From IMG/VR virus record IMGVR_UViG_3300021964_009400: a stretch of DNA of 64,000 nt; one strand, written 5' to 3'. This document shows, in pieces, positions 759 to 12,336 of this stretch. The position numbers and the translations under genes are program-made. The notes under the pieces were generated by a model that was not told the origin of the DNA, searched no databases, and worked only from the letters and a program-made list of their open reading frames with translations. The number at the start of each line of letters is the position of its first letter. Position 1 is the stretch's first letter. The DNA comes from a virus (lineage: Duplodnaviria > Caudoviricetes).

Positions 759-1645
759 AAGTAGTAATATCAATATTTTGCTTACCTTATGAAATTGATG
801 ATTTAGAGAATACTTTAACTCAACTCAAAAGAGCATCACATTATATTGATAAATCAATTGACTGGAATTTAGATGTAACATTATGTTTATCTAATCAAAT
901 GGTAAATTGGGATAAATCATCAATTAATAAAAAATACTTTGAAGATAAATTTCTTAAAATTGCATCAAATACTGATTGGTGTATTAAACATTTCCAAACA
1001 TCAGATAAAATATTAGGTTGTGTATCTCAAAGGAGATTTTCACTTGAAAAACATAGAGAGGCTGATTACTTTATATGGTTAGATACTGATATTATATTTG
1101 AAGAACGAACACTTTCTTATTTAGAAAATGCCATGAAATCTACAAATCAAGCGTTTCCTAATACAATAATCACACCTGAAATAGTAAAAGTATGGGATAC
1201 AACTTGGGATTGTTTGGTGAATGAAAATTTCTTAGATAAACCACTTGATTATCAAAAAACAAATGACCCCTACAAAGATAGTGGAATTAAAGGTGATATT
1301 ATAATACAAGGAGTTTCTAACAATTCTTTTAATCAACCTCGTTTTAAATTTGCTGGTGGTTGGTTTACGTGCATAAGTGGAAAATTACTAAATAGAGTTG
1401 GTGTACCTGAAAGTTTTGGTCACTATGGATATGAAGATACATTTTTAATGTGGGCATCGGAAAAACTGATTCAAGAGAAAGAAGAAAAAATTCAACAATT
1501 TAAAATAAAAAACCTCGTAGTTTGTGAAAACTACAAATATCGTAATAATTCTCATTACTTAAATCATATATCAATTTATGATAGAAGAGAAGAATTTAAA
1601 AATATAGCACACTCTAATTTTAAAAAAGAGTTAGATAAAATTTAA
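755..1645 (+). CDS. Glycosyltransferase (GT2/GT7-like)
   Basis: IWLDTD (DxD) and GHYGYEDT (GT7-like C-terminal motif); overlaps the upstream stop (ATGA). Confidence 0.65.
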   Translation: MKVVISIFCLPYEIDDLENTLTQLKRASHYIDKSIDWNLDVTLCLSNQMVNWDKSSINKKYFEDKFLKIASNTDWCIKHFQTSDKILGCVSQRRFSLEKHREADYFIWLDTDIIFEERTLSYLENAMKSTNQAFPNTIITPEIVKVWDTTWDCLVNENFLDKPLDYQKTNDPYKDSGIKGDIIIQGVSNNSFNQPRFKFAGGWFTCISGKLLNRVGVPESFGHYGYEDTFLMWASEKLIQEKEEKIQQFKIKNLVVCENYKYRNNSHYLNHISIYDRREEFKNIAHSNFKKELDKI

Positions 1646-1674
1646 ACAAATACCCCTTTAAAGTCCCTCCACCT

Positions 1675-1684
1675 TATATTTATT
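1675..1684 (+). promoter_or_regulatory. TATATTTAT late-type promoter motif
   Basis: TATATTTATT in the gap before the surface module; the same motif recurs before several late-type genes. Confidence 0.4.
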
Positions 1685-1818
1685 CATAGTAAAAGGATAA
1701 TTTCCATCGTTATATCAACAAGTTCTACTTAAAACCCGAAAGGGGCTCGTTCTAATCAAGTAGTTTATAATCAATCGTTTTATTTAATTAGTTACGGTAA
1801 TCTATAAAGGAGATTGCT

Positions 1819-2325
1819 TTGAAATACACTATATTAAATGTATTTAAGATGTGTCTCATCTGGTTATTAATATTATTACCAGCTGAGGGAAATGCTGATT
1901 ACACCCAAGACCCAATCAAAGTTGGTAAAGTTACCAATGAAATTAGAATGGGTAAATTTGCAGGTAATCAGAATCTTGCATTTGGTGTAAAAAATATTCT
2001 CGAAGAACTTCTCTTAGATTTAGATTATGATTTATCAGACAGAGCAACCACACAAGTGAATGTTAGGTTGGTCTTTTTTGATATTAAAAATATAGGTAAA
2101 TCGATTGGGATTTATCATAATAAAGTATCCGCTACACAAATAATAGCTATTGGAGAGTTAGTTGTAGATGGTAAGGTTAAAAAGAAAACAACTCAAAAAG
2201 GTGTAAGTAAAGAAATTTCAAACTCTACATTAGTTGTTGCCTCTGATGGAACATTTAATCAACAAACTGCTTCAAATGCTTTGAAAAAAGTATGTGAACA
2301 AATTATTAAGGAATTATTAAAATGA
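1819..2325 (+). CDS. Secreted CsgG/TolB-N-like protein
   Basis: TTG start 6 nt after AAGGAG; N-terminal hydrophobic signal; GNQNLAFGVKNILEELL helix then beta strands, resembling the CsgG/HfaB fold; lies near a clearer CsgG gene. Confidence 0.45.
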   Translation: MKYTILNVFKMCLIWLLILLPAEGNADYTQDPIKVGKVTNEIRMGKFAGNQNLAFGVKNILEELLLDLDYDLSDRATTQVNVRLVFFDIKNIGKSIGIYHNKVSATQIIAIGELVVDGKVKKKTTQKGVSKEISNSTLVVASDGTFNQQTASNALKKVCEQIIKELLK

Positions 2326-4019
2326 AAAAGATTTTATTATTATTATTTAGTGTACTTTTTACAATGAGTACATATGCACAATCGACTTTAGGATATTCGA
2401 GAGTGAACACAGTAAGTCAAGTTGGAGATACTTTAGTTGTAAAATATCAGTACGGTAAAGGAACTGATATGCCAGATGCAACACTTTATCAATTTGATAT
2501 CCAATACAACAATAAGTTATTATCTCTTATTGAAAATGAGTGGATACCATCAGCAACTTCAGCACAAAAAGCAGTAAACACTTGGAATGGATATAAGTTT
2601 ACTATTGATTCTTCAAAAGACCAAACTGATTTTGATGGACAATATACGAGTTGGTTATCAGGCAATGCATCGTATGGAACAAACGCTGATTGGTCAGTAC
2701 AGAGAATAACTTATCAAGATGTAACCCCATTATCAAATGGTGATGAGTTTATGAAGATAAAGTACAAAATTAAAGATAAGGCAGGTACAAATTACTCAGA
2801 TTACAGTAACTTAATAAATGCTAACTGGGTAAACTATAAAGAATCAGATGGAACACTAATAAATTCATCTGGTACAACTGGTCTAAGTTTAACAGATATT
2901 GAAGGAGGTTCTGCAGAGAATGTAACACTTAACATAAATACAAACATTATTGATGATAACATCGGAGATGGTACTGATTTCACTTATAAGATTTATCTTA
3001 AATCAGATATAGGTAGTGGTAACCAACCAAATGAAGGAGCAAATGTTGTTGCTGAAGGTACATATGATGCCGCTGGTCAAGCAGTTGTAACTACTTTAAC
3101 AAATGATGTAGAATACTTTGTTTGGAATTGGGTTGATACTACTAAAGACTATTTAGATAATGTAGTAACCGTATCTGATTTAGCATTAGTATTTCAAGAA
3201 GCAATTGGTGGTGGTATTAATGGAGACCAAACTACATTTGATTATTATATTCAAACATTCTTAGGAAATGTATATCACGATGAGGCATTTGATGCAACAA
3301 TTAACTTTTCAGATTCATATGAGATACTTGCTTACCTACAAGGTGTAACAAGTACTAATACAACTTATATTAGTAAAAAGGGTGAATCTTATCAGACAGG
3401 TGGTAATAAATCAACATTTGGTACAATAGATTCAAATGGAAGTTATTTCGCTGGTATTGATGCAACATTCAAACCAACTGATTCAAATAAATCATTTAAC
3501 TTTGTACACGCTCTTATGGGTGATGTTAACTTCTCACACTCTTGGGAACCAGATACTAATGATACAACAGTTCCATCATCAGAACAAGCACAATCTTATT
3601 CAAACTCAACAAGAGTTTCAATGGCACCAGGACAAAAATATCAATCTGAAGAAGCAAATATTGATTTAGTATCTGAATTAAAAGATGGACAAGTAATATT
3701 CTCAATCAATTCAGATATTGATGAGATGATAGGAGCACAATTCAACATCACATATGATAACACAAGATTAGTATTGGATAATGTAATATTTGATACTGGT
3801 AATGAAATGACTAACTTCTCTAATCATTTAGAAGAAGATGGAAAAATAAACATTGGTTCGTTTGACCAAAACTTTAAGGCAGTTGTTAAAACAGGAACAC
3901 CTTATCAATTAATCTTTACACCAACAGTAACACTAAGTAATACATCGGGCTTGATTACTTTTAAAGTTAATGAAGGTGTAAAAGCAGACGGAACACAAAT
4001 TAAATTTATAATGGAATAA
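2322..4019 (+). CDS. Secreted protein with cohesin-like, dockerin-like and cohesin-like domains
   Basis: Signal peptide; YQFDIQYNNKLL and IGAQFNITYDNTRLVL cohesin-like strands; NVVTVSDLALVF...INFSDSYEILAYL dockerin-like paired helices; MGDVNFSH. Confidence 0.65.
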   Translation: MKKILLLLFSVLFTMSTYAQSTLGYSRVNTVSQVGDTLVVKYQYGKGTDMPDATLYQFDIQYNNKLLSLIENEWIPSATSAQKAVNTWNGYKFTIDSSKDQTDFDGQYTSWLSGNASYGTNADWSVQRITYQDVTPLSNGDEFMKIKYKIKDKAGTNYSDYSNLINANWVNYKESDGTLINSSGTTGLSLTDIEGGSAENVTLNINTNIIDDNIGDGTDFTYKIYLKSDIGSGNQPNEGANVVAEGTYDAAGQAVVTTLTNDVEYFVWNWVDTTKDYLDNVVTVSDLALVFQEAIGGGINGDQTTFDYYIQTFLGNVYHDEAFDATINFSDSYEILAYLQGVTSTNTTYISKKGESYQTGGNKSTFGTIDSNGSYFAGIDATFKPTDSNKSFNFVHALMGDVNFSHSWEPDTNDTTVPSSEQAQSYSNSTRVSMAPGQKYQSEEANIDLVSELKDGQVIFSINSDIDEMIGAQFNITYDNTRLVLDNVIFDTGNEMTNFSNHLEEDGKINIGSFDQNFKAVVKTGTPYQLIFTPTVTLSNTSGLITFKVNEGVKADGTQIKFIME

Positions 4020-4028
4020 GGAGAAACA

Positions 4029-4400
4029 ATGAAAAAATTAATAACACTTTTATTTTTAGTATTACTAACATCTTGTATGAAAGATGAATTTATCGAACCG
4101 ATTAATTTGGTTGAAGTACCTGAATCTTTAGAGATTTCTGAAGTACAAGGATTAAAACTTGAATCAGCAATCGTATCAGATGAAGTTAGAATGAATGTAA
4201 AATTACCATATAGTGGTATTTACAGAATTAAAATTAGAGATATATCTAAGAATTTAGTATCTCAAGAAAAAATCGAAGGTAATGAGGGAGATAATATATT
4301 AAAGGTATATGTTTCTTCATTAGGAAATAATGGGTATATAATTGAACTTACAGATGATGTTCATGATATGATAGGATTAACAACATTTGTAGTAAACTAA
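4029..4400 (+). CDS. Lipoprotein with T9SS-CTD/FlgD-like Ig domain
   Basis: Lipobox LTSC followed by MKDE; LPYSGIYRIKIRDISKNLV...SSLGNNGYIIEL resembles secretion CTD strands; SD AAGGAG 4018-4023. Confidence 0.6.
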   Translation: MKKLITLLFLVLLTSCMKDEFIEPINLVEVPESLEISEVQGLKLESAIVSDEVRMNVKLPYSGIYRIKIRDISKNLVSQEKIEGNEGDNILKVYVSSLGNNGYIIELTDDVHDMIGLTTFVVN

Positions 4401-4409
4401 GGAGATAAA

Positions 4410-4715
4410 ATGGCAAAAAAGAAAAAGAAAGAAGAAGGATTCTTTTCACAAATAAAGAATCAAATCATTGCAGGAGTTGGTATTATACTAACTACTTTGG
4501 GTGGTATATTTATAGATGAAGTAAAATCATTTATAGGAATTGAAGATGAATCAGAACCACAAACTGAGATTGTACAAGAAAACAATCAATCAGTAAATGT
4601 AACTGGTCCTGAAATCATTATCAACATACCAGAACAAAAGACAGAAACTAAAACTATAATAAAAGAAGTTCCTGTTGAAAAGAAAAAAGAAAAAGAAGAA
4701 AAAATTGATTGGTAA
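4410..4715 (+). CDS. Single-pass membrane protein
   Basis: Basic N-terminus, one hydrophobic segment (IIAGVGIILTTLGGIFI), acidic tail; SD AAGGAG 4399-4404. Confidence 0.7.
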   Translation: MAKKKKKEEGFFSQIKNQIIAGVGIILTTLGGIFIDEVKSFIGIEDESEPQTEIVQENNQSVNVTGPEIIINIPEQKTETKTIIKEVPVEKKKEKEEKIDW

Positions 4716-4773
4716 CAATCAAAAATAATAAAGATTATAAATTAAGTTTATTTTAAAAATAGGAGATTATATT

Positions 4774-4968
4774 ATGGAAGTATTAAAAGCAATTTTCACA
4801 GAAAAGGCATCAGACTACAAAGTAATGGATATTATTGTAAAAATATGGGTTGCAGGTTTATTATTCATGCTTGTATTGGGTTTTGTAGCCATTATGTATG
4901 GTATTATATCAGGTGAAGCAGATATTCAAAATGCAACTTTTGGTGTATTTGACACTTTAGGATATTAA
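4774..4968 (+). CDS. Small membrane protein
   Basis: Long hydrophobic stretch IWVAGLLFMLVLGFVAIMYGII; AGGAG 4761-4765. Confidence 0.6.
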   Translation: MEVLKAIFTEKASDYKVMDIIVKIWVAGLLFMLVLGFVAIMYGIISGEADIQNATFGVFDTLGY

Positions 4969-4977
4969 GTAAAAAAT

Positions 4978-5082
4978 ATGAAAAAATTAAAAGAATTATT
5001 AATTAAATTTGATGATTGGTTAACAAAAATTGGATATGAAATGTATCCTCAATTAACCAAACATATGAAAGATAAAAAATGA
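4978..5082 (+). CDS. Small hypothetical protein (34 aa, below the ORF track cutoff)
   Basis: MKKLKELLIKFDDWLTKIGYEMYPQLTKHMKDKK; stop overlaps the ATG of the next gene (ATGA). Confidence 0.5.
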   Translation: MKKLKELLIKFDDWLTKIGYEMYPQLTKHMKDKK

Positions 5083-5798
5083 AAAAACTTTTTTTATTAT
5101 TGGTATGTATATTTTTTACATTAAATACATTTGCACAAACAGTAGGTAAAATTAAAGCCGAAGAATATACCGCAGAATTTGAAAAGAAAAAATCAATTGA
5201 TGATGTTTCAGATTATTGGGGTGATATGATACCAGTTGCTTTACTCAATGTTGGTATATCTGATGATTTATATGAGATGTATCCAGAGTTAAGAGATGGT
5301 AGAGTAGGTTTAGGACTTACCAACATCGTAATTGAATACTTAGATTGGACAAACAGATTTGAATTCGTAGAAGAAAAATCTTCAATCAAAGATAGAATGA
5401 AATCACAATGGGTTGCTTCAAGAAAAGGTGTTTCGGAGAATCAAGTATATGGATTAGGTAAAATCAAGTTAGCAGAATATTTCGTTACAATAGAGATATA
5501 TGATTTCTCTGTTTCAGAGGATGAGGTTTTATCACTTAAAGATGGTTCTAAACAAACACAAACAACTCGTTTAGGTTTACAAGTTAGGTTTACTAATGCA
5601 GAGAATGGTACATATTTCGTAGGTTCCGGTCTTGGTACGGCGAATACAGTAAAGACTCAAGAGGGTTTGCTGGGGTTAGATTTGGATGAAATAAAGTTCA
5701 GACAATCAGCAATTGGAGTATCTACCAGAAAAGCATTGGAAACCGCTTCAGCAAGAATAGTAGCAAGAATGATTAGAAAAGGTATATTTGAAAACTAA
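5079..5798 (+). CDS. csgG: CsgG/HfaB-family curli assembly/transport-like protein
   Basis: Signal peptide; GLGLTNIVIEYLDWTNRFEFVE, AEYFVTIEIYDF, RLGLQVRFTNAENGTY match the CsgG family pattern; no lipobox Cys, unlike E. coli CsgG. Confidence 0.7.
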   Translation: MKKLFLLLVCIFFTLNTFAQTVGKIKAEEYTAEFEKKKSIDDVSDYWGDMIPVALLNVGISDDLYEMYPELRDGRVGLGLTNIVIEYLDWTNRFEFVEEKSSIKDRMKSQWVASRKGVSENQVYGLGKIKLAEYFVTIEIYDFSVSEDEVLSLKDGSKQTQTTRLGLQVRFTNAENGTYFVGSGLGTANTVKTQEGLLGLDLDEIKFRQSAIGVSTRKALETASARIVARMIRKGIFEN

Positions 5799-5801
5799 TG
5801 A

Positions 5802-7697
5802 ATGAGAAAGTTACTATCGATATTATTCTTTCTGTTTGTAGCTAATTTTAGTTACTCACAAACTTTCACACAGACATTTGTAGATAGATGTACTGGTGAA
5901 GTACAAGTTGTAACCGCAAACTTCACAAGTGGTTCTGCTATTGTATCGTTTTATAACGAGGCAAAATTATTTACCTATCAACAATACACAAATGGTGAAC
6001 TACATCAATGGTTAGTTCAAAAATATGCATGGTGGACAGCACTATCAGCATGCTCAACTGCACAAAACAATACAACAAACGCAACAAACACGGCGAATAA
6101 CGCAACAAACTCTACAAGTAACACAAGTAGTTCATCCTCGAGTGGTTCAAGTGGTAGTAGTGGAAGTGGTTCGAGTGGTAGTAGTGGAAGTGGTTCGAGT
6201 GGTTCAAGTGGAAGTGGTTCCGATTCAAGTGGAAGTGGTTCATCAGGTGGAGATAGTGGAAGTGGTTCCGATAGTGGTGGAAATGGCTCTGATTCAGGTG
6301 GTAATGGTTCCGATTCTGGTGGAGATAGTGGAAGTGGTTCCGATGGTGGTGGAGACTCTGGTGGAGATAGTGGGGGTTCTGATTCCGATGGTGGAAGTGG
6401 AGACTCTGGTGGAGATGGTTCCGATGGTGGTGATGATGGAAACTCTGGTGGAGATGGTGATGGTTCTGGTGGAGATGATGGTAGTGGAGATGGTGATGGT
6501 GATTCCGGCTCTGGTGATGGTGATGAAGGTAGTGGTGATGGTGATGGAGATGGTGATGGTGGTGATGGAGATGGTGATGGTGATGGTGGTGATGGTGATG
6601 GTGGTGATGGAGATGGTGATGGAGATGGTGATGGAGATGGCGATGGTGATGGAGATGGCGATGGTGATGGAGATGGTGATGGTGGTGATGGAGATGGTGA
6701 TGGAGATGGTGATGGAGATGGCGATGGTGATGGAGATGGCGATGGTGATGGAGATGGAGATGATTCAGATGGTGATGGTGATGATGACTCAGATGGTGAT
6801 GATGATAGTGATGATAGTGATGATTCCGATGAAGATTCTGATGAAGAAAGTGAAGAATCAGAGGAAGAAGAAAAAGAAGAAGAATCTGATGAAGAAGAAA
6901 AAGAAGAAGATGAAGAAGAAAGTGATGAGGAAGAGGAAGAAGAAAAAGAAGAAGATGAAGAGGAAGAAGAATCTGATGAAGATTCTGAAGAAGATGAAGA
7001 AGAGGAAGAAGAAAAAGAAAAAAAGTTTTTACCTATTCAATTAAAGGCTGATTTAATGTCAATGCAGGCATTAACATTAGAATATAATCAAATTCTTAAT
7101 ATAGGTGCATCTCAAACATCAATTTTTGGTGATAGAACAAATACAGCCAGTTTAATGATTTGGGATAACTTAAAACAAGCAAGTTTAGGATTAGGAACTT
7201 CAAAAGTAACATTAGATGATAACTACCAAGTATCTTGGGTAGATGGAATAAACCTATCTTATATGAGAAACTATAAAATGAATGCAATATCAACATCAGC
7301 CAGTAGAATGAAACCATTGGGTAAATGGGGAACTGTGGGTGTTGGTATAAATTATTCATATATGTTTGGTAAAGACCAACTTGGGGGAAGATTTCCTAAT
7401 ATGGTATCACTTGGATATAACTTACTTTATACAAATTCATTTCAATTAACAGATAGAATAATGTATGCACCAGCATTAATTGGTGCACAAAACCCTTTAA
7501 GTTATATGGAAGAAATGGCTGGGTTTGAAGCTATGGCAAGTACCTCAAAAGATTTTATTGGTATTTTTGCCAACTCATTTAATGTGCAATTAACACCAAG
7601 ATTTGGGTTCAATGTAGGTTGGACTCTTATTTATAGTAGTAACGAATTTGTTCCTTTGATGAACTCATTTATGATAGGAGCAAAGTTACCCTTTTAA
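5802..7697 (+). CDS. Secreted/outer-membrane protein with Ser-Gly, Gly-Asp and Glu-rich stalk and probable C-terminal beta-barrel
   Basis: Signal peptide; about 300 aa of low complexity; C-terminal about 220 aa of amphipathic strands ending GAKLPF (terminal aromatic residue). Confidence 0.65.
   Translation: MRKLLSILFFLFVANFSYSQTFTQTFVDRCTGEVQVVTANFTSGSAIVSFYNEAKLFTYQQYTNGELHQWLVQKYAWWTALSACSTAQNNTTNATNTANNATNSTSNTSSSSSSGSSGSSGSGSSGSSGSGSSGSSGSGSDSSGSGSSGGDSGSGSDSGGNGSDSGGNGSDSGGDSGSGSDGGGDSGGDSGGSDSDGGSGDSGGDGSDGGDDGNSGGDGDGSGGDDGSGDGDGDSGSGDGDEGSGDGDGDGDGGDGDGDGDGGDGDGGDGDGDGDGDGDGDGDGDGDGDGDGDGGDGDGDGDGDGDGDGDGDGDGDGDGDDSDGDGDDDSDGDDDSDDSDDSDEDSDEESEESEEEEKEEESDEEEKEEDEEESDEEEEEEKEEDEEEEESDEDSEEDEEEEEEKEKKFLPIQLKADLMSMQALTLEYNQILNIGASQTSIFGDRTNTASLMIWDNLKQASLGLGTSKVTLDDNYQVSWVDGINLSYMRNYKMNAISTSASRMKPLGKWGTVGVGINYSYMFGKDQLGGRFPNMVSLGYNLLYTNSFQLTDRIMYAPALIGAQNPLSYMEEMAGFEAMASTSKDFIGIFANSFNVQLTPRFGFNVGWTLIYSSNEFVPLMNSFMIGAKLPF
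6127..7022 (+). repeat. Coding low-complexity tandem repeats (AGTGGT, GGTGATGGAGAT, GAAGAA) including a 77 bp exact duplication
   Basis: 6600-6676 is identical to 6681-6757; 6 and 12 bp periodic GAT-GGN units. Confidence 0.9.
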
Positions 7698-7709
7698 GGA
7701 GAAAAAAAT

Positions 7710-8246
7710 ATGAAAAAGATAGATTGGAAATTAATAGGAATGGGAGTATTTATAGGAACAACAATATGGTTGTTTACAAATCCCAAAATTCAAGAAGTAG
7801 AAAAAATTAAAGAAATAGAAGTTATTCAGACTGTTGTAGATAGTATCTATATAGAAAAACTTGTAGAGAAAAAAGTATTTGTACCAAAGTATATTACAAA
7901 AGAAGTAGAAAAACAAGTTGAAGTAATCAAAGAAGTAATCGTAGAAAAACCAGTTGAAGTAATTAAAACAGTTTATGTAGATAAACCTTATGAAACAATT
8001 GTTGATAGATATGTATTACCAGAACCTAAATGGTATTTAGGATTTGGATACAAGTTTGATAATAATAATTATTTTAGTGGAACTGATATAAAACTTTTAA
8101 GAAAATTTAAAAGTGATAAAATGTTTTCTTTAGATGTTGGTTTAAGAAATGATTTATTAGATGCTGAAACTGGTGTGAGTAAATTATATCCATATGTTGG
8201 AGCATCAATTTACTTCAGATTAGATAAACCAAATACTAATTTTTAA
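7710..8246 (+). CDS. Membrane-anchored protein with VEK/VIKE repeats and C-terminal beta strands (possibly spanin-like)
   Basis: N-terminal TM; EVIKEVIVEKPVEVIK repeats; WYLGFGY and YVGASIYF strands; SD TAAGGAG 7695-7701. Confidence 0.55.
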   Translation: MKKIDWKLIGMGVFIGTTIWLFTNPKIQEVEKIKEIEVIQTVVDSIYIEKLVEKKVFVPKYITKEVEKQVEVIKEVIVEKPVEVIKTVYVDKPYETIVDRYVLPEPKWYLGFGYKFDNNNYFSGTDIKLLRKFKSDKMFSLDVGLRNDLLDAETGVSKLYPYVGASIYFRLDKPNTNF

Positions 8247-10867
8247 TGAAAAAACTTCTTTACATACTATTACTTTTACCCACTTTAGTTTTAGGACAAT
8301 TAGGTGGACCAACTTCATCAGATGTTTCTGATGGTGAAGGTGCGGCAACTTTGGTATGGTTAGGAACTCCATCAAACTCAAGTGAATCGATTTCTAATAT
8401 CAGACCTGGTGATACAATCGTAATGGGGATTAAGATTCACAACTACAAAAATAATAACCCAATAACTTATGCTCACATTGATGTTCAGTATGATAAAAGA
8501 AAATACACAAAAATAAGTCATGTATTTAGTTCATCTGCAAGTGGAACTTCACACTTCATGGGTGATAATCTTTCAATAACTTGGACAAATAGTTATGACC
8601 ACTATGATATATGGAGTCAATGGTCTCGTGGTGGTAGTTATGGAAGTAATTCTAATTATTGGGTTGACCATTATCAAGCAACTGCAACTAATAATGATTT
8701 AGCATCTCTTGATTGGTATGTAAAAGTAAATCTATTAGTAAAAGATTATAATGAAGATTTAGATTATACAGATGGTATTATTGTAACAATGGGTCAAATG
8801 ACAGAAAGTAATGGTACTTCTTATGACCCAATGTATGCATATGAGTACCAAGATTTCTCTTATGCTCCACTACAAGCTGCACCAACATTCTCTTCAGCAG
8901 TTAGTGATGGACAAGATGCAGTAATTTACAAATCATTTAAAATAAACGATTATGATTCAAATGGTGGTCAATCAGAATATAATGCTCATCCTCAGAGTTC
9001 ATCTGATTTTGATGCTATGTTTGATTATGCAAATAAGAAAACTACTGAGTGGACACATTATGGTAGAGAAACTGCAACAAAGGCATTTACTTGGCCATGG
9101 AGTAATATCTTACCAAGACATGCTAATAGTAATTTCGGTTGGGAAATTGAAGCAAAATTTATAGCAGAAGAAACAGGTACATATACATTCCAAGTAAGTT
9201 CAGATGATAGAAGTGATTTCTTTTTTGATTCTAATATAGATGGAAACATGACAAACACTAACTTGGCTTATAATAATGGAGCAAGAACTGTTGATATCGA
9301 TTTAACTGCTGATAATGTTTATTCATTTAGAGTTAGATACGAACAAGGAGTTGGTGGTGCAAATTTATATTTGAAATGGAAAAGACCATCTGATTCTGAT
9401 TATCAATTTAATGAAGATGAAATATGGAGTGTTAGTCCAGCAAGTATTCCTCATAAATTAGATGTAGTTTATAATATCAATGATGATTTAGATAAAAGTA
9501 AATTCAGTTCAAAGTTAGAATATGATAATGGAACAGTAAATGGTACAAAAACTGAATCATTAGGAACGAATGGACAAGTATCATATAATGATGATGATGG
9601 TGGAGTTTATTCTACTCAAGTAAATACTGGTAATAAGAAAGCAAACACAACTGGTGGTTCGGTAGAGTGGATTGTAGTTTATGATTATGATAATACAAAC
9701 AATAGATACAGAGTTGGTATCGATAGTAGAGAATTTACAAACCAACAACCAGATTGGGATACGGTAACTAAATTAAAATTATTTGATTTATGGGATGGTT
9801 CAGTAACACCAAAGAGTGGTAACAACAATGCAGATACTCATTGGAACGAATATTGGATTTATACAGATACAGAACTTGATTGGAGTAATTCAACATTTTC
9901 ATCTTATATTAGAGATGCAAGTGGTTTTTATGGATTAAAAGCAGAAGTTGAATTTGTAGATGTTACAAGTTATGTAAATCACGATTTATTATTAGAAGTT
10001 GATGGAACTTATTATTCAGAACAATATTCAAATGTAGTTACAATACAAGATGTTGCTTTAGCATTTAGTGAACTTACGAGTGGTGGTAGTATAGGACCTA
10101 ACCCAAGTAGTGGTGGTACATTTACAACTGGTATTGAATATGTAGTTTCTGATGTTAATGAAGATGGTAAATTTGATTTTGTAGATACACAATTAATGTT
10201 AGAACATTTATTTGGTGATACAGACCCATTTGAAGGAAATGTATTTGATGATGTTGTAATGTTATTTGAAAGTGATTATAATAGTTGGAGTACAACTGAT
10301 TGGTCAACAGGTGTTCCGAGAGGTAAAACTAAAACTTATGTACCAAGTACATCATTCAGTCAAAGAACACAAAGTAACACTTACAATATTGCATTTTTAG
10401 GTGATGTAAACTTTTCTCATTCTGAAGAACCTACAAACTTAACAACATCAGCACAAGAAATGACAATTGCATATTCATCTACTCGTGGTGTAACACAACA
10501 AAGTAATCATATAAATTTTGATATTATAAGAGAAGGTAATCTAATTAGTTTAGAACTTTCAATTCCTTCAAATCAGAAAAATATAATTGGTTCACAGTTT
10601 AAAATTTATTTTGATAATGATAAAGTTGATTACAAAGAAACAGAATTTTCAAATGAATCTATTCCAAATTTTGCAACTGATAGAACTAATTATGTAAACA
10701 TTGGTTCATTTAGTTCAGATGGTTCTAAAAATTTAAATGGAGGTATAACTTATAAATTAAATTTCGAACTTAAATCTGATTTACAATCAACATTAGGATT
10801 ATTTGGAATTAGATTTTGGGAATTGGTAGATAAAGATAATATAAAAGTAGAGCTTAAAATAAAATGA
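8246..10867 (+). CDS. Secreted protein with cohesin-like, PA14, dockerin-like and cohesin-like domains
   Basis: Signal peptide; GTYTFQVSSDDRSDFFFD...FRVRYEQGVGGANLYLKWK (PA14); DVNEDGKFDFVDTQLML (dockerin/EF-like); LGDVNFSH; IIGSQFKIYFDNDKV (cohesin); paralog of 2322..4019. Confidence 0.75.
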   Translation: MKKLLYILLLLPTLVLGQLGGPTSSDVSDGEGAATLVWLGTPSNSSESISNIRPGDTIVMGIKIHNYKNNNPITYAHIDVQYDKRKYTKISHVFSSSASGTSHFMGDNLSITWTNSYDHYDIWSQWSRGGSYGSNSNYWVDHYQATATNNDLASLDWYVKVNLLVKDYNEDLDYTDGIIVTMGQMTESNGTSYDPMYAYEYQDFSYAPLQAAPTFSSAVSDGQDAVIYKSFKINDYDSNGGQSEYNAHPQSSSDFDAMFDYANKKTTEWTHYGRETATKAFTWPWSNILPRHANSNFGWEIEAKFIAEETGTYTFQVSSDDRSDFFFDSNIDGNMTNTNLAYNNGARTVDIDLTADNVYSFRVRYEQGVGGANLYLKWKRPSDSDYQFNEDEIWSVSPASIPHKLDVVYNINDDLDKSKFSSKLEYDNGTVNGTKTESLGTNGQVSYNDDDGGVYSTQVNTGNKKANTTGGSVEWIVVYDYDNTNNRYRVGIDSREFTNQQPDWDTVTKLKLFDLWDGSVTPKSGNNNADTHWNEYWIYTDTELDWSNSTFSSYIRDASGFYGLKAEVEFVDVTSYVNHDLLLEVDGTYYSEQYSNVVTIQDVALAFSELTSGGSIGPNPSSGGTFTTGIEYVVSDVNEDGKFDFVDTQLMLEHLFGDTDPFEGNVFDDVVMLFESDYNSWSTTDWSTGVPRGKTKTYVPSTSFSQRTQSNTYNIAFLGDVNFSHSEEPTNLTTSAQEMTIAYSSTRGVTQQSNHINFDIIREGNLISLELSIPSNQKNIIGSQFKIYFDNDKVDYKETEFSNESIPNFATDRTNYVNIGSFSSDGSKNLNGGITYKLNFELKSDLQSTLGLFGIRFWELVDKDNIKVELKIK

Positions 10868-11208
10868 AAAAATTTTTAATATTAATAGTATTGTTATTAC
10901 TTTCTTGTCAAAAAGATGAGTTGATTGAAGTAGAAATTCCTCAATCATATGAACTTATTTTTGATGAAGTAGAATCAACAATACTTGATGGCCAAGATAT
11001 TTCTTTTGAAGTATCTGTTGAAGGAAAATATTTATTATTAATTACAGATATTGAGAAACAATCTGTAATTTCAAAAGAATCATTTTTGTTACCCATTGGT
11101 ATTGTAACTCGTAAAATCTACACAAAATCTTTACCAAAGAAAAAACTACAACTAACTTTAGAAACTTCAACAGAAGTTCTAAAATCTACTTATATTGTTA
11201 TAGAATAA
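10864..11208 (+). CDS. Lipoprotein with T9SS-CTD-like Ig domain (paralog of 4029..4400)
   Basis: Lipobox LLSC followed by QKDE; ISFEVSVEGKYLLLITD...KIYTKSLPKKKLQLTL. Confidence 0.6.
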   Translation: MKKFLILIVLLLLSCQKDELIEVEIPQSYELIFDEVESTILDGQDISFEVSVEGKYLLLITDIEKQSVISKESFLLPIGIVTRKIYTKSLPKKKLQLTLETSTEVLKSTYIVIE

Positions 11209-11471: not shown

Positions 11472-11632
11472 TAGAAAAAGGAAGTAAGATTGTTGCTAAA
11501 TCTCAATCTAAAAAACAATTAGAAAAAGTTCTACCAAAACCAATTGCAAAACAAGTTGCAAAAAAAATTGGTAAAGGAGTAGAATCACTTACTTCATCTG
11601 CTATCGATTTGTGGAATAAATTCAAGAAGTAA
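11447..11632 (+). CDS. Hypothetical protein
   Basis: ORF track; overlaps the upstream gene end. Confidence 0.5.
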   Translation: MGKLKEKIIEKGSKIVAKSQSKKQLEKVLPKPIAKQVAKKIGKGVESLTSSAIDLWNKFKK

Positions 11633-11640
11633 ACTTACCT

Positions 11641-11650
11641 TATATTTATA
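11641..11650 (+). promoter_or_regulatory. TATATTTATA late-type promoter motif
   Basis: Ends 5 nt before ATG 11656; the motif recurs at 12321, 14632, 15181, 16361, 31084, 54291 and 61599. Confidence 0.45.
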
Positions 11651-11655
11651 GTAGT

Positions 11656-12300
11656 ATGTTTATATTCACAGAAGAAAATATCGGTAATATTAAGAATGCT
11701 ATCTATACAACAGATGGTATAAAGGATAAACACGCTGAAAGAATTGAGTATGTTAAAACAAAAGGTTTATTCAAAGATTTAGATTTATCAAAATATTTTC
11801 ACAAAAATCCACCAAAAAATACATCAATGAAAACTCTACAAGAGTTATATTGGTTAAGAGATTTACCAGAAGATAAAGAGTTTGTTGAAAAACACGATGA
11901 TGTTAAAGGTGTATTTAAAGAGGTATGTGAAGAACATGGGATAGAGTTTCCAAAAGAATTAGTTAAAGAACTAATTAAATCATGTTCAATGTTGGAACTA
12001 AAATATCATTTCAATAGACCAAGACCTTACCAACTTGCAGATTATTATAATATTAAGTTGGGTGAGAATATACTTGAAAGTATGAAAACCCCTTCTTACC
12101 CTTCTGGTCATGCTGCACAAGGTATTCTAATAGGTAAAGTTTTACAAACAAAATTACCAATCAATACTAATGCATTTATTGAAGCAGGAGAACGAATATC
12201 TTATTCTCGAAACATTGGTGGAGCACATTATCCTTCGGATTCAGAAATGGGTAAAAACATTGGTCATCGAATGTACGAATATATAATTCACAAGATTTAA
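11656..12300 (+). CDS. PAP2 / acid phosphatase-haloperoxidase superfamily protein
   Basis: Three signature motifs KYHFNRPRP, PSYPSGH, SRNIGGAHYPSD. Confidence 0.85.
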   Translation: MFIFTEENIGNIKNAIYTTDGIKDKHAERIEYVKTKGLFKDLDLSKYFHKNPPKNTSMKTLQELYWLRDLPEDKEFVEKHDDVKGVFKEVCEEHGIEFPKELVKELIKSCSMLELKYHFNRPRPYQLADYYNIKLGENILESMKTPSYPSGHAAQGILIGKVLQTKLPINTNAFIEAGERISYSRNIGGAHYPSDSEMGKNIGHRMYEYIIHKI

Positions 12301-12336
12301 TACTTATATAAAGAAACATTTATATTTATATAGTAT

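What the first reader, a model, noticed from the sequence alone, without database searches (positions are those of the whole stretch)
1819..11208. Phage-encoded cell-surface assembly module: two CsgG-like channels, cohesin/dockerin proteins, surface lipoproteins and a stalked beta-barrel
Seen: at least ten contiguous genes, nearly all with signal peptides, lipoboxes or TM segments. They include two CsgG-like proteins (1819, 5079), two paralogous cohesin/dockerin-like secreted proteins (2322, 8246; the second adds a PA14 domain), two paralogous lipoproteins and a protein with a ~300 aa acidic stalk. No curlin subunit is present. Established: CsgG is the outer-membrane secretion pore of curli; cohesin-dockerin pairs build cellulosome-type scaffolds; PA14 domains bind glycans; csgG homologues are known in some marine phages. 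Inference: proteins carrying both cohesin and dockerin could polymerise head-to-tail into a lattice or fibre on the infected cell, serving adhesion, aggregation, superinfection blocking or grazer defence. I do not know this combination as a described phage system.
Basis: partly seen in the sequence, partly recalled or inferred. Interest (0 to 1): 0.85.

Follow-up and report, generated by a model that had tools for sequence, protein, structure and literature searches.

The report
Phage cohesin-lipoprotein cell-envelope cassette
A widespread marine T4-like phage of Flavobacteria carries a ten-gene block of exported proteins (cohesin/dockerin lectins, each paired with a small surface lipoprotein, plus a CsgG-family protein and an outer-membrane barrel on an acidic stalk) that most likely re-dresses the surface of the infected cell; a cultured relative makes this testable.

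Summary
All ten ORFs in 1819-11208 have export signals, against 7 of 84 elsewhere (p 2e-9). The block is syntenic in 17 related viral contigs. Its core also occurs in distant relatives and in cultured Flavobacterium phage vB_FspM_immuto.

- **Folds confirmed:** cohesin (both ends of g2322), a dockerin-like module, PA14, a CsgG-family domain (g5079) and an outer-membrane barrel (g5802).
- **Corrections:** g1819 is only a small YajG/LptE-like relative. g5079 has no lipobox, CsgF or curlin, and shortened hairpins, so "two channels" is not shown.
- **New finding:** the two lipoproteins carry the Bacteroidota surface-export signal and a weakly T9SS-CTD-like domain. Their genes follow the cohesin genes one-to-one in 19 of 19 loci. 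They are absent where the cohesin protein ends in a true T9SS CTD, which suggests gene fission.
- **Predicted binding:** a complex model places the lipoprotein between the two cohesins (score 0.78; best control 0.18).

My reading is that this is a host-exported surface display module whose role is receptor masking or adhesion. Head-to-tail polymerisation remains untested. Phage csgGF clusters and phage T9SS cargo are published precedents, so I class it as a new variant. The scan also noted this same stretch in an overlapping window.

The parts
1672..1683 (+). CCTTATATTTAT motif upstream of g1819, also found exactly at 11638. It is a possible late-type promoter variant heading the cassette.
   Evidence: One search found two exact copies, but 5 matches with up to one mismatch against 2.6 expected, which is not significant. 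One search found ATATTTATA not enriched in this window. RNA-library contigs of relatives begin at 1704-1717 in two runs. This is a weak hint only.
1819..2325 (+). g1819: 168 aa, TTG start, N-terminal signal or anchor. A small alpha/beta domain of the YajG / LptE / CsgG-like superfamily.
   Evidence: hydrophobic N-terminus. (Atlas features: Lipoprotein_16, DUF4410 and CsgG/LptE clusters). (Pfam Lipoprotein_16 in 2 of 15 family members, best E 1.8e-4). (weak hhalign match to the C-terminal helix of g5079, E 8e-4). Present in 20 of 30 loci.
2322..4019 (+). g2322: 565 aa secreted protein with a type I signal peptide. Layout: N-terminal cohesin, Ig-like domain, dockerin-like module, GDVNFSHS motif, linker, C-terminal cohesin.
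   Evidence: AF2 model. Top Foldseek PDB hits are cohesins at E 1e-7 to 1e-5. AFDB hits are cohesin, dockerin and T9SS-CTD proteins. Profile against PDB cohesin ScaB gives E 1.4e-4.
2379..2906 (+). g2322 N-terminal cohesin-like domain (residues 20-195).
   Evidence: pLDDT 81-94. Cohesin fold hits. Part of the predicted interface with the lipoprotein.
3153..3356 (+). g2322 dockerin-like module (residues ~278-345). The first calcium loop is degenerate and the second is EF-hand-like.
   Evidence: Alignment A4. Pfam Dockerin_1 in 11 of 25 family members, best E 5.3e-5. hhalign to the L025 protein, whose Dockerin_1 hit passes Pfam's cut-off. AF2 confidence is low here.
3519..3542 (+). Nearly invariant GDVN(F/L)SHS motif between the dockerin-like module and the C-terminal cohesin. 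Its role is unknown. It may be a further calcium-binding loop.
   Evidence: Invariant G, D, H columns in A3 and A4. It aligns with GDANGTGF in the L025 protein.
3648..4016 (+). g2322 C-terminal cohesin domain (residues 443-565), with the conserved LSNTSGL loop.
   Evidence: Pfam Cohesin in 8 of 25 members, best E 9.3e-5.. The lowest-error contacts with the lipoprotein fall here.
4029..4400 (+). g4029: 123 aa lipoprotein (lipobox LTSC) with the Bacteroidota surface-export signal C-M-K-D-E. The mature domain is a T9SS-CTD-like / DUF3244-like beta-sandwich. It is the predicted partner of g2322.
   Evidence: export signal kept in 17 of 30 homologues strictly, 27 of 30 acidic. PMC5080379. (weak CTD-like signal). 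(complex score 0.78, best control 0.18). (one-to-one with the cohesin gene).
4410..4715 (+). g4410: 101 aa single-pass membrane protein with a Lys-rich N-terminus and a C-terminal Trp. It belongs to the conserved core and sits next to the CsgG-like gene in distant relatives and in phage immuto.
   Evidence: No family hit.
4774..4968 (+). g4774: 64 aa small membrane protein.
5079..5798 (+). g5079: 239 aa CsgG-family domain protein with a type I signal peptide (..FAQ/T) and no lipobox. It is the most conserved gene of the cassette.
   Evidence: AF2 pLDDT 72. Foldseek to CsgG, E 3e-7. VIA Z 11.7, rmsd 3.6, 162 residues aligned. 334 clusters at 50% identity, with distant members passing the Pfam CsgG cut-off. 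Widened profile hits E. coli CsgG at E 1e-4. 3231 clusters at 90% identity.
5859..6086 (+). g5802 N-terminal ~75 aa domain with two invariant Cys residues (FTQTFVDxCTG ... PC). No known family.
   Evidence: Alignment A5. No Pfam or PDB match.
6087..7001 (+). g5802 polyanionic low-complexity stalk (residues 96-400). It runs from S/G-rich to (GD)n to E/D-rich and has net charge -121.
   Evidence: GC and GC-skew spike at 6001-8000. Length and composition vary among relatives.
7014..7694 (+). g5802 C-terminal outer-membrane beta-barrel domain (residues 405-631), ending ..AKLPF.
   Evidence: Atlas structure matches to DUF481, OMP_b-brl, BBP2_2 and YaiO barrels with TM 0.72-0.76 by query. All ten best named feature hits are outer-membrane barrel families.
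7710..8246 (+). g7710: 178 aa. N-terminal transmembrane anchor, charged V/E/K-rich repeats, and a C-terminal beta-rich segment ending in Phe. It may span the envelope. It is not universal (hits in 12 of 30 loci).
   Evidence: No family hit.
8246..10867 (+). g8246: 873 aa secreted paralogue of g2322. Layout: N-terminal cohesin-like region, PA14 lectin domain (nt 9062-9400), further beta-rich region, dockerin-like module with a canonical DVNEDGKFDFVD loop (nt ~10031-10225), GDVNFSHS motif, C-terminal cohesin (nt ~10508-10864).
   Evidence: PA14 41.7 bits, GLEYA 31.6 bits...
10864..11208 (+). g10864: 114 aa lipoprotein (LLSC) with export signal C-Q-K-D-E. It is the paralogue of g4029 and overlaps the g8246 stop codon (ATGA).

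Best explanation
This is a phage-encoded cassette of exported proteins that re-dresses the outer membrane and surface of the infected Flavobacteriia cell. It is not part of the virion.

Proposed mechanism:
1. The host Sec machinery exports all ten products.
2. The two small lipoproteins are lipidated and flipped to the cell surface by the Bacteroidota lipoprotein-export pathway.
3. Each lipoprotein is the detached equivalent of the T9SS C-terminal sorting domain that the same cohesin protein still carries as a fusion in related phages.
4. Each large cohesin/dockerin protein (g2322; g8246 with its PA14 lectin) is held by its own lipoprotein, clamped between its N- and C-terminal cohesin domains. 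This tethers variable glycan-binding modules to the cell.
5. The invariant core (CsgG-family protein g5079, stalked barrel g5802, small membrane protein g4410) forms an outer-membrane platform that supports or anchors this display.

Most likely pay-off: the coat masks or cross-links surface glycans and receptors, which would exclude superinfecting phages and stop progeny being lost on debris. Alternatively it glues infected cells to particles or neighbouring hosts.

Status of each claim:
- Shown: gene content, export signals, folds, paralogy, synteny, the one-to-one pairing.
- Predicted: the cohesin-lipoprotein complex.
- Inferred: surface location, the role of the core, and the biological pay-off.
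For: - Export signals on 10 of 10 ORFs against 7 of 84 elsewhere.
- No PHROG virion family hit.
- Cohesin fold and profile hits.
- The C-terminal unit is homologous to a relative's protein that carries Dockerin_1 (28 bits), Cohesin (27.1 bits) and Por_Secre_tail (29.4 bits), all above Pfam's cut-offs.
- Cultured Flavobacterium phage immuto gp015 has Cohesin plus a T9SS CTD, next to homologues of g4410, g5079 and g5802.
- Lipoproteins: lipobox plus C-x-K-(D/E)2 export signal; weak CTD/DUF3244 signal.
- The lipoprotein gene starts 0-19 nt after the cohesin gene. Counts are one-to-one in 19 of 19 loci. No lipoprotein gene is present where the CTD is fused.
- Complex prediction: score 0.78 against a best control of 0.18. 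That mark was reached by 58 of 80 solved complexes and 2 of 110 mismatched pairs. The three runs agree on at least 95% of contacts and the partner's pLDDT is 86.
- Interface residues on g2322 are more conserved than the rest of the cohesin domains (0.68 against 0.57, p 0.0017).
- PA14 here, and C-type lectin and LamG domains in relatives, point to glycan binding.
- The large proteins and lipoproteins diverge much faster (26-81% identity) than g5079 (72-94%) across the same loci. This fits an interface with a variable outside target.
- Far-T4 phages are predicted to infect marine Bacteroidetes (PMC7198788), and the cultured relative's host is a Flavobacterium.
- Precedent: phage T9SS cargo, including a PA14 protein, is hypervariable and has been proposed to act in superinfection exclusion (PMC7468147).
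Against: - No experiment exists. Surface exposure of the non-lipidated 565- and 873-aa proteins needs a route across the outer membrane, and in this lineage that route is not identified because they carry no CTD.
- The CTD-like nature of the lipoprotein rests on weak scores: Pfam E 0.0036 at best, hhalign probability 26%, no PDB hit and no precomputed Pfam domain.
- Interface conservation is not seen on the lipoprotein side.
- The complex score is the model's own confidence and used my own shallow alignments.
- The role assigned to g5079, g5802 and g4410 is guesswork.
- Some relatives place an endolysin and a secreted nuclease next to the cassette, which would also fit a role in lysis.
Confidence: 0.55

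Rival explanations
1. The large proteins polymerise head-to-tail, with the dockerin of one binding a cohesin of the next, into a fibre or lattice on the cell. The CsgG-like proteins act as the secretion pores.
For: - Each large protein has two cohesin domains and one dockerin-like module.
- Relatives carry separate lectin proteins with a dockerin-like segment beside a CTD-anchored cohesin protein, so cohesin-dockerin docking is likely somewhere in this family of cassettes.
- g5079 is a true CsgG-family domain.
Against: - The dockerin-like module folds with low confidence and did not dock on either cohesin in the monomer model.
- Both cohesins of g2322 are predicted to be occupied by the lipoprotein.
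- g1819 is too small to be a pore.
- g5079 lacks a lipid anchor. Its TM1- and TM2-equivalent segments are about 6 and 9 residues shorter than in E. coli CsgG and carry several charges (alignment).
- CsgG passes unfolded chains through a narrow constriction, and no such substrate is evident here.
Confidence: 0.15
2. A lysis or egress device. The invariant core (g4410 membrane protein, CsgG-family ring, outer-membrane barrel, envelope-spanning g7710) perturbs or times breakdown of the envelope, in the way proposed for CsgGF in phage Melnitz. The cohesin proteins are accessories.
For: - In L020 and L027 a PG_binding_1 + GH19 endolysin-like gene directly follows the cassette.
- g4410 and g4774 have holin-like size and topology, and g7710 could bridge the inner and outer membranes.
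- There is a late-type promoter-like motif and a strong Shine-Dalgarno sequence before g1819.
- The Melnitz paper proposes a lysis link for phage CsgG (PMC9004378).
Against: - Nothing in the cassette matches a holin, spanin or endolysin family.
- In phage immuto the endolysin lies about 7 kb away, behind tRNA genes.
- Lectin, cohesin and surface-lipoprotein content is not needed for lysis.
- g7710 is missing from many relatives.
Confidence: 0.12
3. Sabotage or hijack of the host type IX secretion system. The cargo-less, lipid-anchored CTD-like proteins engage T9SS components as decoys. This would shut down export of gliding adhesins and other surface proteins that serve as phage receptors, or would carry the bound cohesin protein out through the T9SS.
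For: - The lipoprotein domain is CTD-like and sits where a true CTD sits in relatives.
- Relatives encode real type A and type B CTD cargo (Por_Secre_tail, CHU_C).
- A natural cargo-less CTD protein with a regulatory role, PorA of P. gingivalis, is known (abstract of PMC7712824).
Against: - The lipoproteins lack the PNPT-type start motif and the basic C-terminal end of the fused CTDs.
- They carry a surface-export signal that argues for a different export route.
- Their CTD-like face is predicted to be buried between the cohesins.
Confidence: 0.1
4. The proteins are virion components, such as tail or head decoration.
For: Ig-like, lectin and cohesin-like beta-sandwich domains do occur on phage particles. 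The cassette has the same orientation as the rest of the genome.
Against: - Sec signal peptides, lipoboxes and T9SS sorting domains send the proteins out of the cytoplasm, where virions assemble.
- No PHROG structural family hit.
- Earlier notes on this genome place the structural module more than 45 kb beyond the window's end.
- The dockerin-cohesin unit occurs nowhere else in three complete relatives.
Confidence: 0.03

Closest known systems
csgG-csgF 'curli' clusters of pelagimyophages (HTVC008M group) and OM43 phage Melnitz (PMC7029224; PMC9004378)
   Same: - T4-like marine phages carry a CsgG-family gene with neighbouring unknown secreted proteins.
- There is no curlin subunit.
- The cluster lies in a variable region outside the structural module.
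- The function is unknown (adhesion or 'sibling capture', uptake, or lysis timing have been proposed).
   Different: - Those CsgG and CsgF proteins are recognisable by sequence and close to proteobacterial ones.
- Here g5079 gets no direct Pfam hit, has no lipobox and has no CsgF.
- It is always next to a stalked outer-membrane barrel protein.
- It sits among cohesin/dockerin lectins and lipoproteins.
- The host is Bacteroidota, not Proteobacteria.
Phage-encoded T9SS cargo of 'Cryophage' (Bellas et al. 2020, PMC7468147)
   Same: A Bacteroidetes phage encodes hypervariable secreted proteins, including a PA14 protein, that use the host's export systems. Superinfection exclusion or strain competition was proposed.
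   Different: - In Cryophage the proteins are single enzymes or a PA14 protein with fused type A CTDs.
- Here the window's lineage has no fused CTD. It has a separate lipoprotein in its place, plus cohesin/dockerin modules, a CsgG-family protein and a barrel, all arranged as a conserved cassette.
Cellulosomal and non-cellulosomal cohesin-dockerin systems (e.g. PDB 4ums, 4fl4, 2w1n)
   Same: The cohesin beta-sandwich fold and a dockerin-like EF-hand loop (DVNxDGxFDFxD). Relatives also have an anchored cohesin plus dockerin-bearing lectins.
   Different: - The system is encoded by a phage.
- There are no enzymes.
- The first dockerin loop is degenerate.
- The predicted cohesin ligand is a CTD-like lipoprotein rather than a dockerin.
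- Anchoring is by a Bacteroidota lipoprotein or a T9SS CTD, not by SLH domains or sortase.
PelC-PelB and LptE-LptD (a CsgG-fold lipoprotein working with a separate outer-membrane barrel; PDB 9h80, 5ixm)
   Same: A CsgG/LptE-fold protein (g5079 Z 9.2-10.1 to PelC, Z 8.5 to LptE) is encoded next to a barrel protein (g5802).
   Different: - g5079 scores highest against CsgG itself and is not lipidated.
- The g5802 barrel is small (~225 aa) and has an N-terminal Cys-domain on a 305-aa polyanionic linker.
- No polysaccharide or LPS pathway genes are present.
Phage lipoproteins that mask receptors (T5 Llp, phi80/N15 Cor), recalled from general knowledge and not tested here
   Same: Phage-encoded outer-membrane lipoproteins made during infection that block the phage's own receptor and so prevent superinfection and loss of progeny on debris.
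   Different: Those are single small lipoproteins that act on one receptor from the periplasmic side. Here the lipoproteins are surface-directed and appear to act as anchors for large lectin-like partners.
PorA of Porphyromonas gingivalis (cargo-less CTD protein; PMC7712824, PMC12152298; abstracts only)
   Same: A small exported protein that is essentially a stand-alone T9SS CTD-type domain.
   Different: PorA keeps a true CTD and signals to PorXY-SigP. The phage proteins are lipidated, have only weak CTD similarity, and are predicted to bind cohesins.

Membership tests
CsgG (Pfam PF03783; curli type VIII secretion channel) | Homology to the CsgG domain (ABD-like alpha/beta fold) | tested here: met
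   - VIA Z 11.7, rmsd 3.6, 162 residues aligned to 4q79.
- Foldseek E 3e-7.
- Members of the g5079 family profile pass the Pfam CsgG cut-off: P0190 43.9 bits and P0258 45.8 bits against a cut-off of 20.8.
- The widened profile hits E. coli CsgG at E 1e-4.
- g5079 alone has no Pfam hit.
CsgG (curli channel) | N-terminal lipobox (lipoprotein anchored in the outer membrane) | tested here: not met
   The signal peptide ends ..TFAQ/TVG with no Cys. This holds across the family alignment A1.
CsgG (curli channel) | Two transmembrane hairpins (TM1, TM2) that build the 36-stranded barrel | tested here: inconclusive
   - The AF2 model has long strands at 134-147, 156-173 and 179-195.
- The TM1-equivalent segment is 18 aa against 24 in E. 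coli CsgG, and 6 of the 18 are charged.
- The TM2-equivalent is about 9 aa shorter (sequence plus the alignment).
- No oligomer model was made.
CsgG (curli channel) | Partners CsgF/CsgE and curlin substrates CsgA/CsgB in the locus | tested here: not met
   No CsgF, CsgE or Curlin_rpt hit in any of the ten proteins at E up to 1. The N-domain family of g5802 has no CsgF hit.
Cohesin (PF00963) | Nine-stranded beta-sandwich cohesin fold and profile similarity | tested here: met
   - Top PDB fold hits are cohesins, with TM by target up to 0.72.
- Profile A3 against cohesin ScaB 4ums gives E 1.4e-4.
- Pfam Cohesin in 8 of 25 family members.
- hhalign probability 95.7% to a protein with Cohesin above Pfam's cut-off.
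Cohesin | Binds a dockerin in a calcium-dependent way | not tested
No dockerin-cohesin model or assay was made.
Dockerin type I (PF00404) | Two tandem ~22-residue calcium-loop plus helix repeats | tested here: inconclusive
   - g8246 has one canonical loop, DVNEDGKFDFVD, followed by a helix.
- The preceding repeat keeps only positions 5, 8 and 12.
- Pfam score for g8246 alone is E 0.12.
- 11 of 25 family members hit, best E 5.3e-5.
- The homologous L025 protein passes the cut-off at 28 bits.
- AF2 pLDDT is 30-45 in this region.
PA14 (PF07691) | Pfam match above the gathering score | tested here: met
   g8246 residues 273-385, 41.7 bits against a cut-off of 24. GLEYA 31.6 bits.
Bacteroidota surface-exposed lipoprotein | Lipobox Cys followed by the export signal C-x-K-(D/E)2-x | tested here: met
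   g4029 has C-M-K-D-E and g10864 has C-Q-K-D-E. Of 30 homologues, 17 fit strictly and 27 have at least two acidic residues at +2 to +7. The motif definition comes from PMC5080379.
Bacteroidota surface-exposed lipoprotein | Actual exposure on the cell surface | not testable with these tools
   This needs protease shaving or antibody labelling of infected or expressing cells.
T9SS type A C-terminal sorting domain (PF18962 Por_Secre_tail) | Sequence match to the CTD profile | tested here: inconclusive
   - g4029 scores E 0.076.
- 6 of 26 family members hit, best E 0.0036. The related family DUF3244 hits 10 of 26, best E 1.2e-4.
- The nearest Atlas cluster carries PF18962 in 55% of its members.
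- hhalign to the fused-CTD profile gives E 7e-4, probability 26%, in register.
- No PDB hit and no precomputed Pfam domain in the 120 closest relatives.
T9SS type A C-terminal sorting domain | Located at the C-terminus of a cargo protein | tested here: not met
   In the window it is a separate gene with its own signal peptide and lipobox. It is fused only in relatives such as L018, L020, L025 and immuto gp015.
Outer-membrane beta-barrel (MBB clan) | Barrel fold and a C-terminal aromatic beta-signal | tested here: met
   Atlas structure matches with TM 0.72-0.76 to DUF481, OMP_b-brl and BBP2_2. All ten best named feature hits fall in one clan. The protein ends ..FMIGAKLPF.
Classical (type Va) autotransporter | Autotransporter beta-domain family match | tested here: not met
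   Only the topology resembles it (signal peptide, N-terminal passenger, linker, C-terminal barrel). There is no Pfam Autotransporter hit at E up to 1.

The most novel reading that the evidence does not exclude
Far-T4 / Immutovirus-like phages build a cellulosome-like, lectin-bearing scaffold on the surface of infected Flavobacteria.

- Its anchor is a new kind of cohesin ligand: a T9SS sorting domain that split off from its cargo, gained a lipid anchor and a surface-export signal, and is gripped between two cohesins.
- A CsgG-family ring and an autotransporter-like barrel on a polyanionic stalk form a phage-supplied outer-membrane platform or export route for it.

If true, this would be the first phage-encoded cohesin-dockerin assembly. 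It would also be a natural example of a secretion signal converted into a non-covalent anchor.
Probability: 0.3. Interest if true: 0.85.

Novelty: new variant of a known kind. Interest (0 to 1): 0.68.

Why it matters
- **Ecological reach.** The cassette is very common in aquatic metagenomes: g5079 alone has 3231 clusters at 90% identity. It belongs to a major, mostly uncultured phage lineage of marine Bacteroidota, which are key degraders of algal polysaccharides.
- **What a surface coat would mean.** If phages coat infected cells with variable lectin complexes, that bears on superinfection exclusion, particle attachment, aggregation and carbon export.
- **Link to an open question.** Why marine T4-like phages carry CsgG-type genes is still unanswered, and this cassette is another instance of that puzzle.
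- **Structural interest.** The predicted cohesin-lipoprotein clamp would be a new cohesin partner. The split CTD would be a clear case of a secretion signal being re-used for another purpose.
- **Testability.** Flavobacterium phage vB_FspM_immuto and its host are in culture, so the ideas can be tested directly.

Tried and rejected
- **Direct family scans of the ten window proteins.** Pfam gave only PA14/GLEYA. PHROGs and NCBIfam gave nothing useful.
- **PDB sequence searches.** Single-sequence and first-profile searches with g5079 and g1819 found nothing. Only a widened profile reached CsgG.
- **Searches in the phage collection.** Nucleotide search of the region, and tblastn of g8246, gave no match.
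- **g1819 against g5079.** No BLAST similarity.
- **g5802 N-domain.** No Pfam or PDB relative, and no CsgF similarity beyond a 6-residue resemblance that I do not count.
- **Lipoprotein profile.**
  - No PDB hit.
  - hhalign against a single fused CTD gave nothing.
  - The large homologue search returned 1060 relatives with no precomputed Pfam domain among the 120 listed.
- **Whole-genome searches.** No genome is held for this window.
- **Promoter motifs.** CCTTATATTTAT and ATATTTATA are not enriched in this window. The sigma-70 scan was below the shuffled expectation. Expression timing is therefore unresolved.
- **Metatranscriptome contigs.** Contigs of close relatives cover much of g1819 to the g5802 N-terminus, g7710 and parts of g8246. 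They cannot prove transcription, level or transcript ends.
- **Literature.** I found no paper on the cohesin genes of phage immuto.
- **Not attempted, because job caps were reached.** Structure models of g1819, g4029, g7710 and g8246; an oligomer model of g5079; dockerin-cohesin and g5079-g5802 complex models.

Full report
**1. What is there**

The window is low-GC (about 28%) and nearly all of its genes lie on the + strand. Earlier notes on the same genome call it an uncultured marine T4-like ('Far-T4') jumbo phage. Between 1819 and 11208 lie ten ORFs:

| ORF | Length (aa) |
|---|---|
| g1819 | 168 |
| g2322 | 565 |
| g4029 | 123 |
| g4410 | 101 |
| g4774 | 64 |
| g5079 | 239 |
| g5802 | 631 |
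| g7710 | 178 |
| g8246 | 873 |
| g10864 | 114 |

Every one has a hydrophobic N-terminal segment. Six look like type I signal peptides or N-terminal anchors. Two have lipoboxes (LTSC, LLSC). Two or three are single-pass membrane proteins. Only 7 of the other 84 ORFs in the window have such a segment (hypergeometric p 2e-9).

**2. Conservation**

A scan of IMG/VR with g5079 returned 30 loci.

- In L001-L017 the whole block is syntenic.
- g5079 is the most conserved gene (72-94% identity). The large proteins and lipoproteins are the most variable (26-81%).
- The flanking genes change between loci while the block stays, so it behaves as a cassette.
- More distant loci (L018-L030) keep a core: a large secreted protein, a g4410-like membrane protein ending in Trp, the g5079 homologue, and a g5802-like protein. 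Other secreted proteins surround this core.
- g5079 has 3231 clusters at 90% identity and 334 clusters at 50% identity, so the family is very abundant.

**3. The 'CsgG-like' proteins**

g5079 has no direct Pfam or PDB sequence hit. The case for a CsgG-family domain rests on four results:

- Its AF2 model (pLDDT 72) matches E. coli CsgG best. Foldseek gives E 3e-7. VIA gives Z 11.7, rmsd 3.6, 162 residues aligned. That is about one Z unit above Cj1090c, PelC, CT253, FlgT and LptE, which share the fold.
- Distant members of its own profile family pass the Pfam CsgG cut-off (up to 45.8 bits against 20.8). Some of these are fused to Ser/Thr kinase or caspase domains.
- A widened profile hits E. 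coli CsgG in the PDB at E 1e-4.

So g5079 is a true, distant CsgG-family domain. It is not shown to be a curli-type pore:

- It has no lipobox.
- The cassette has no CsgF, CsgE or curlin.
- The segments that align with the CsgG TM1 and TM2 hairpins are about 6 and 9 residues shorter and carry several charges (alignment plus the sequence).

g1819 is only about 140 aa when mature. Its signals are YajG (Lipoprotein_16), DUF4410 and LptE-like, with a weak profile match to the last helix of g5079 (E 8e-4). It belongs to the same broad fold group but is too small to be a channel.

**4. The cohesin/dockerin proteins**

- g2322 and g8246 share their last ~300 residues (30% identity, E 2e-17) and, weakly, their N-terminal domains.
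- The AF2 model of g2322 has a confident N-terminal beta-sandwich (residues 20-195), an Ig-like domain (200-271), a poorly modelled middle (279-441) and a C-terminal beta-sandwich (443-565).
- Its best PDB matches are cohesin modules and cohesin dyads.
- Its best AlphaFold DB matches are bacterial proteins named as T9SS-CTD, cohesin or dockerin proteins.
- The family profile hits the cohesin ScaB (4ums) at E 1.4e-4, through both the C-terminal and the N-terminal domain.
- Scanning the 25 members of the C-terminal-unit alignment one by one gives Dockerin_1 in 11 (best E 5.3e-5) and Cohesin in 8 (best E 9.3e-5).

The alignment shows three features:
- a degenerate first calcium loop plus helix (xDxVVTVxDxxLxFxEL);
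- a canonical second loop plus helix (DVNEDGKFDFVDTQLMLEHL in g8246);
- a nearly invariant GDVN(F/L)SHS motif further on.

g8246 also has a clear PA14/GLEYA lectin domain.

**5. The decisive comparison**

- In L018, L020 and L025, the large protein upstream of the CsgG-like gene carries its domains at Pfam-significant scores. Cohesin reaches up to 52.2 bits, Dockerin_1 reaches 28 bits in L025, and the protein ends in a true T9SS type A sorting domain (Por_Secre_tail, 29-38 bits).
- The window's C-terminal unit aligns to the L025 protein with hhalign probability 95.7%, E 1e-8, across the dockerin and cohesin parts.
- tblastn then found the same arrangement in a cultured phage, Flavobacterium phage vB_FspM_immuto (host Flavobacterium sp. 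LMO8, Baltic Sea). Its gene order is:
  - gp012, a secreted Endonuclease_NS;
  - gp013, a C-type lectin;
  - gp014;
  - gp015, Cohesin plus Por_Secre_tail;
  - gp016, g4410-like;
  - gp017, 54% identical to g5079;
  - gp018, g5802-like.
- Relatives also encode C-type-lectin plus LamG proteins with a dockerin-like or EF-hand segment, a type B CTD (CHU_C) protein, and a secreted SprT-like protein.

These results fix the host phylum, which agrees with PMC7198788. They show that the family of cassettes is made of proteins handed to the host's export systems. They also make cohesin-dockerin docking at the cell surface plausible.

**6. The lipoproteins**

- g4029 and g10864 are paralogues (E 3e-7).
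- Right after the lipid-modified Cys they read C-M-K-D-E and C-Q-K-D-E. This matches the optimal Bacteroidetes lipoprotein export signal C-x-K-(D/E)2-x, which was shown experimentally to send lipoproteins to the cell surface (PMC5080379).
- The signal is kept in the family: 17 of 30 homologues fit strictly and 27 of 30 are acidic.
- The mature ~100-aa domain gives weak but repeated hits to Por_Secre_tail (6 of 26 members) and to the related DUF3244 (10 of 26).
- The nearest Atlas cluster carries PF18962 in 55% of its members.
- The family profile aligns in register with a profile of the fused CTDs (E 7e-4, probability 26%).
- Independent checks gave nothing, so the fold assignment is tentative.

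The gene arrangement is much stronger evidence:
- In 19 of 19 loci whose cohesin proteins lack a CTD, the number of lipoprotein genes equals the number of large cohesin genes (eleven loci with 2+2, eight with 1+1).
- Each lipoprotein gene starts 0-19 nt after a large gene. In L023 and L024 the two lipoprotein genes follow the two large genes as a pair.
- Loci with a fused CTD have no such lipoprotein.

The simplest reading is a gene fission. The sorting domain became a separate gene and gained a lipoprotein signal peptide and a surface-export signal.

**7. Do the pairs bind?**

- The score was 0.78 against a best control of 0.18.
- That mark was reached by 58 of 80 solved complexes and 2 of 110 mismatched pairs in the tool's calibration.
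- The three runs agree on at least 95% of contacts, and the partner's pLDDT is 86.
- The model supports binding but does not show it, and the calibration counts hold only roughly because my own alignments were used.
- The lipoprotein sits between the two cohesin domains.
- The lowest-error contacts involve the conserved LSNTSGL loop (538-547) and strands 449-453 and 477-482 of the C-terminal cohesin, plus residues 55-132 and 171-177 of the N-terminal one.
- Interface residues of g2322 are more conserved than the rest of the two cohesin domains (0.68 against 0.57; p 0.0017). On the lipoprotein side there is no such enrichment, but that alignment mixes both paralogue types.
- I know of no solved cohesin-CTD complex, so a pass 'from memory' seems unlikely, though I cannot exclude it.

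**8. The stalked barrel and the rest**

g5802 has three parts:
- a ~75-aa N-terminal domain with two invariant Cys residues and no known family;
- a 305-aa stalk (G 32%, D 28%, S 21%, E 13%; net charge -121) that grades from S/G-rich through (GD)n to E/D-rich and varies in length and composition among relatives;
- a C-terminal ~225-aa domain that matches outer-membrane barrels (TM 0.72-0.76) and ends in Phe.

The order of parts is that of a classical autotransporter, but there is no autotransporter family hit. g4410, g4774 and g7710 are small membrane proteins without family hits. g7710 could reach from the inner to the outer membrane, but it is missing from many relatives.

**9. How it most likely works**

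Shown:
- a conserved cassette of exported proteins;
- the folds;
- the one-to-one pairing of cohesin protein and lipoprotein;
- a fused T9SS CTD in relatives.

Predicted:
- the cohesin-lipoprotein clamp.

Inferred:
- The lipoproteins reach the surface by the host's lipoprotein-export route and hold the lectin-bearing cohesin proteins there.
- The invariant g4410, g5079 and g5802 trio forms an outer-membrane platform.
- The coat masks or cross-links surface glycans, giving superinfection exclusion and protecting progeny from debris, or it promotes adhesion.

The weakest point is how the non-lipidated 565- and 873-aa proteins would cross the outer membrane in this lineage.

Rivals:

| Rival | Confidence |
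|---|---|
| Head-to-tail cohesin-dockerin polymer with CsgG pores | 0.15 |
| Lysis or egress device (an endolysin follows the cassette in L020 and L027) | 0.12 |
| T9SS decoy or hijack | 0.10 |
| Virion parts | 0.03 |

The virion reading is contradicted by the export signals, the lack of PHROG structural hits, and the absence of the unit elsewhere in three complete relatives.

**10. Timing and expression**

- A motif CCTTATATTTAT precedes g1819 and recurs at 11638. It resembles the late-type motif noted elsewhere in this genome, and g1819 has an AGGAG ribosome-binding site.
- The motif is not statistically enriched in this window.
- Contigs from RNA libraries of marine and fresh or brackish water carry close relatives of much of the cassette. 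Two begin at 1704-1717.
- Contigs cannot prove transcription or define transcript ends.
- Timing remains open.

**11. Novelty**

Two published precedents exist:
- csgG-csgF clusters without curlin in pelagimyophages and phage Melnitz (PMC7029224, PMC9004378);
- hypervariable T9SS cargo, including a PA14 protein, in 'Cryophage' (PMC7468147).

I found no description of phage cohesin/dockerin cassettes, of the split CTD-like lipoprotein, or of the CsgG-family plus stalked-barrel core in Bacteroidota phages. The GenBank record of immuto merely names a 'cohesin domain-containing protein'. I therefore class it as a new variant of a known kind. Interest is fairly high because the lineage is abundant, the predicted cohesin ligand is new, and a cultured system exists.

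Noticed in passing
window 6087-7001: The g5802 stalk is an extreme polyanion: 305 aa, net charge -121, including about 80 residues of near-pure (GD)n. It produces the window's strongest GC-skew spike (0.48 at 6001-8000). In relatives the equivalent linker is Q/T/N/A-rich followed by E/K-rich. So length and disorder appear to be conserved while composition is not.
   Followed up: partly
window 4978-5082: A 34-codon ORF (MKKLKELLIKFDDW...) fills the gap between g4774 and g5079 and ends at the ATGA start of g5079. I did not check whether it is conserved.
   Followed up: no
window 11656-12300: The gene just downstream of the cassette is a PAP2-family phosphatase (Pfam 36 bits) with no obvious membrane segment. 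It is conserved next to the cassette in many close relatives. It might act on envelope lipid phosphates.
   Followed up: no
L020:13919-14509; L031 (NC_055915.1) 3936-4514: Relatives place a DNA/RNA non-specific endonuclease (Endonuclease_NS, 80-91 bits) inside or beside the cassette. The L020 copy has a signal peptide. A periplasmic or secreted phage nuclease could act against superinfecting DNA or on extracellular DNA.
   Followed up: partly
L029:2763-4823 and L030:2763-4823: A 686-aa phage protein ends in a type B T9SS sorting domain (CHU_C, 57 bits). These phages therefore encode both type A and type B T9SS cargo.
   Followed up: partly
L031 (NC_055915.1 record 11598-13422): In the cultured phage immuto, the ~630-aa dockerin-cohesin-CTD protein of L025-type relatives appears as two genes: gp014 (363 aa, no Pfam hit) and gp015 (243 aa, Cohesin + CTD). 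This is another split at a different place in the same protein family.
   Followed up: no
proteins P0203, P0215, P0229, P0258: Distant cellular relatives of g5079 have the CsgG-family domain fused to Ser/Thr protein kinase or caspase (Peptidase_C14) domains. The domain is therefore widely used outside curli secretion, probably as an extracytoplasmic module.
   Followed up: no
window 1700-1745: The spacer before g1819 contains a small CCC-GAAA-GGG hairpin (about 1736-1746). It lies between the late-type motif and the ribosome-binding site. Its function is unknown.
   Followed up: no
window 3-1645: The two genes upstream of the cassette (g0003, g0755) have no Pfam or PHROG hit. g0755 carries a DTD motif reminiscent of glycosyltransferases. 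Both are conserved next to the cassette only in the closest relatives.
   Followed up: no
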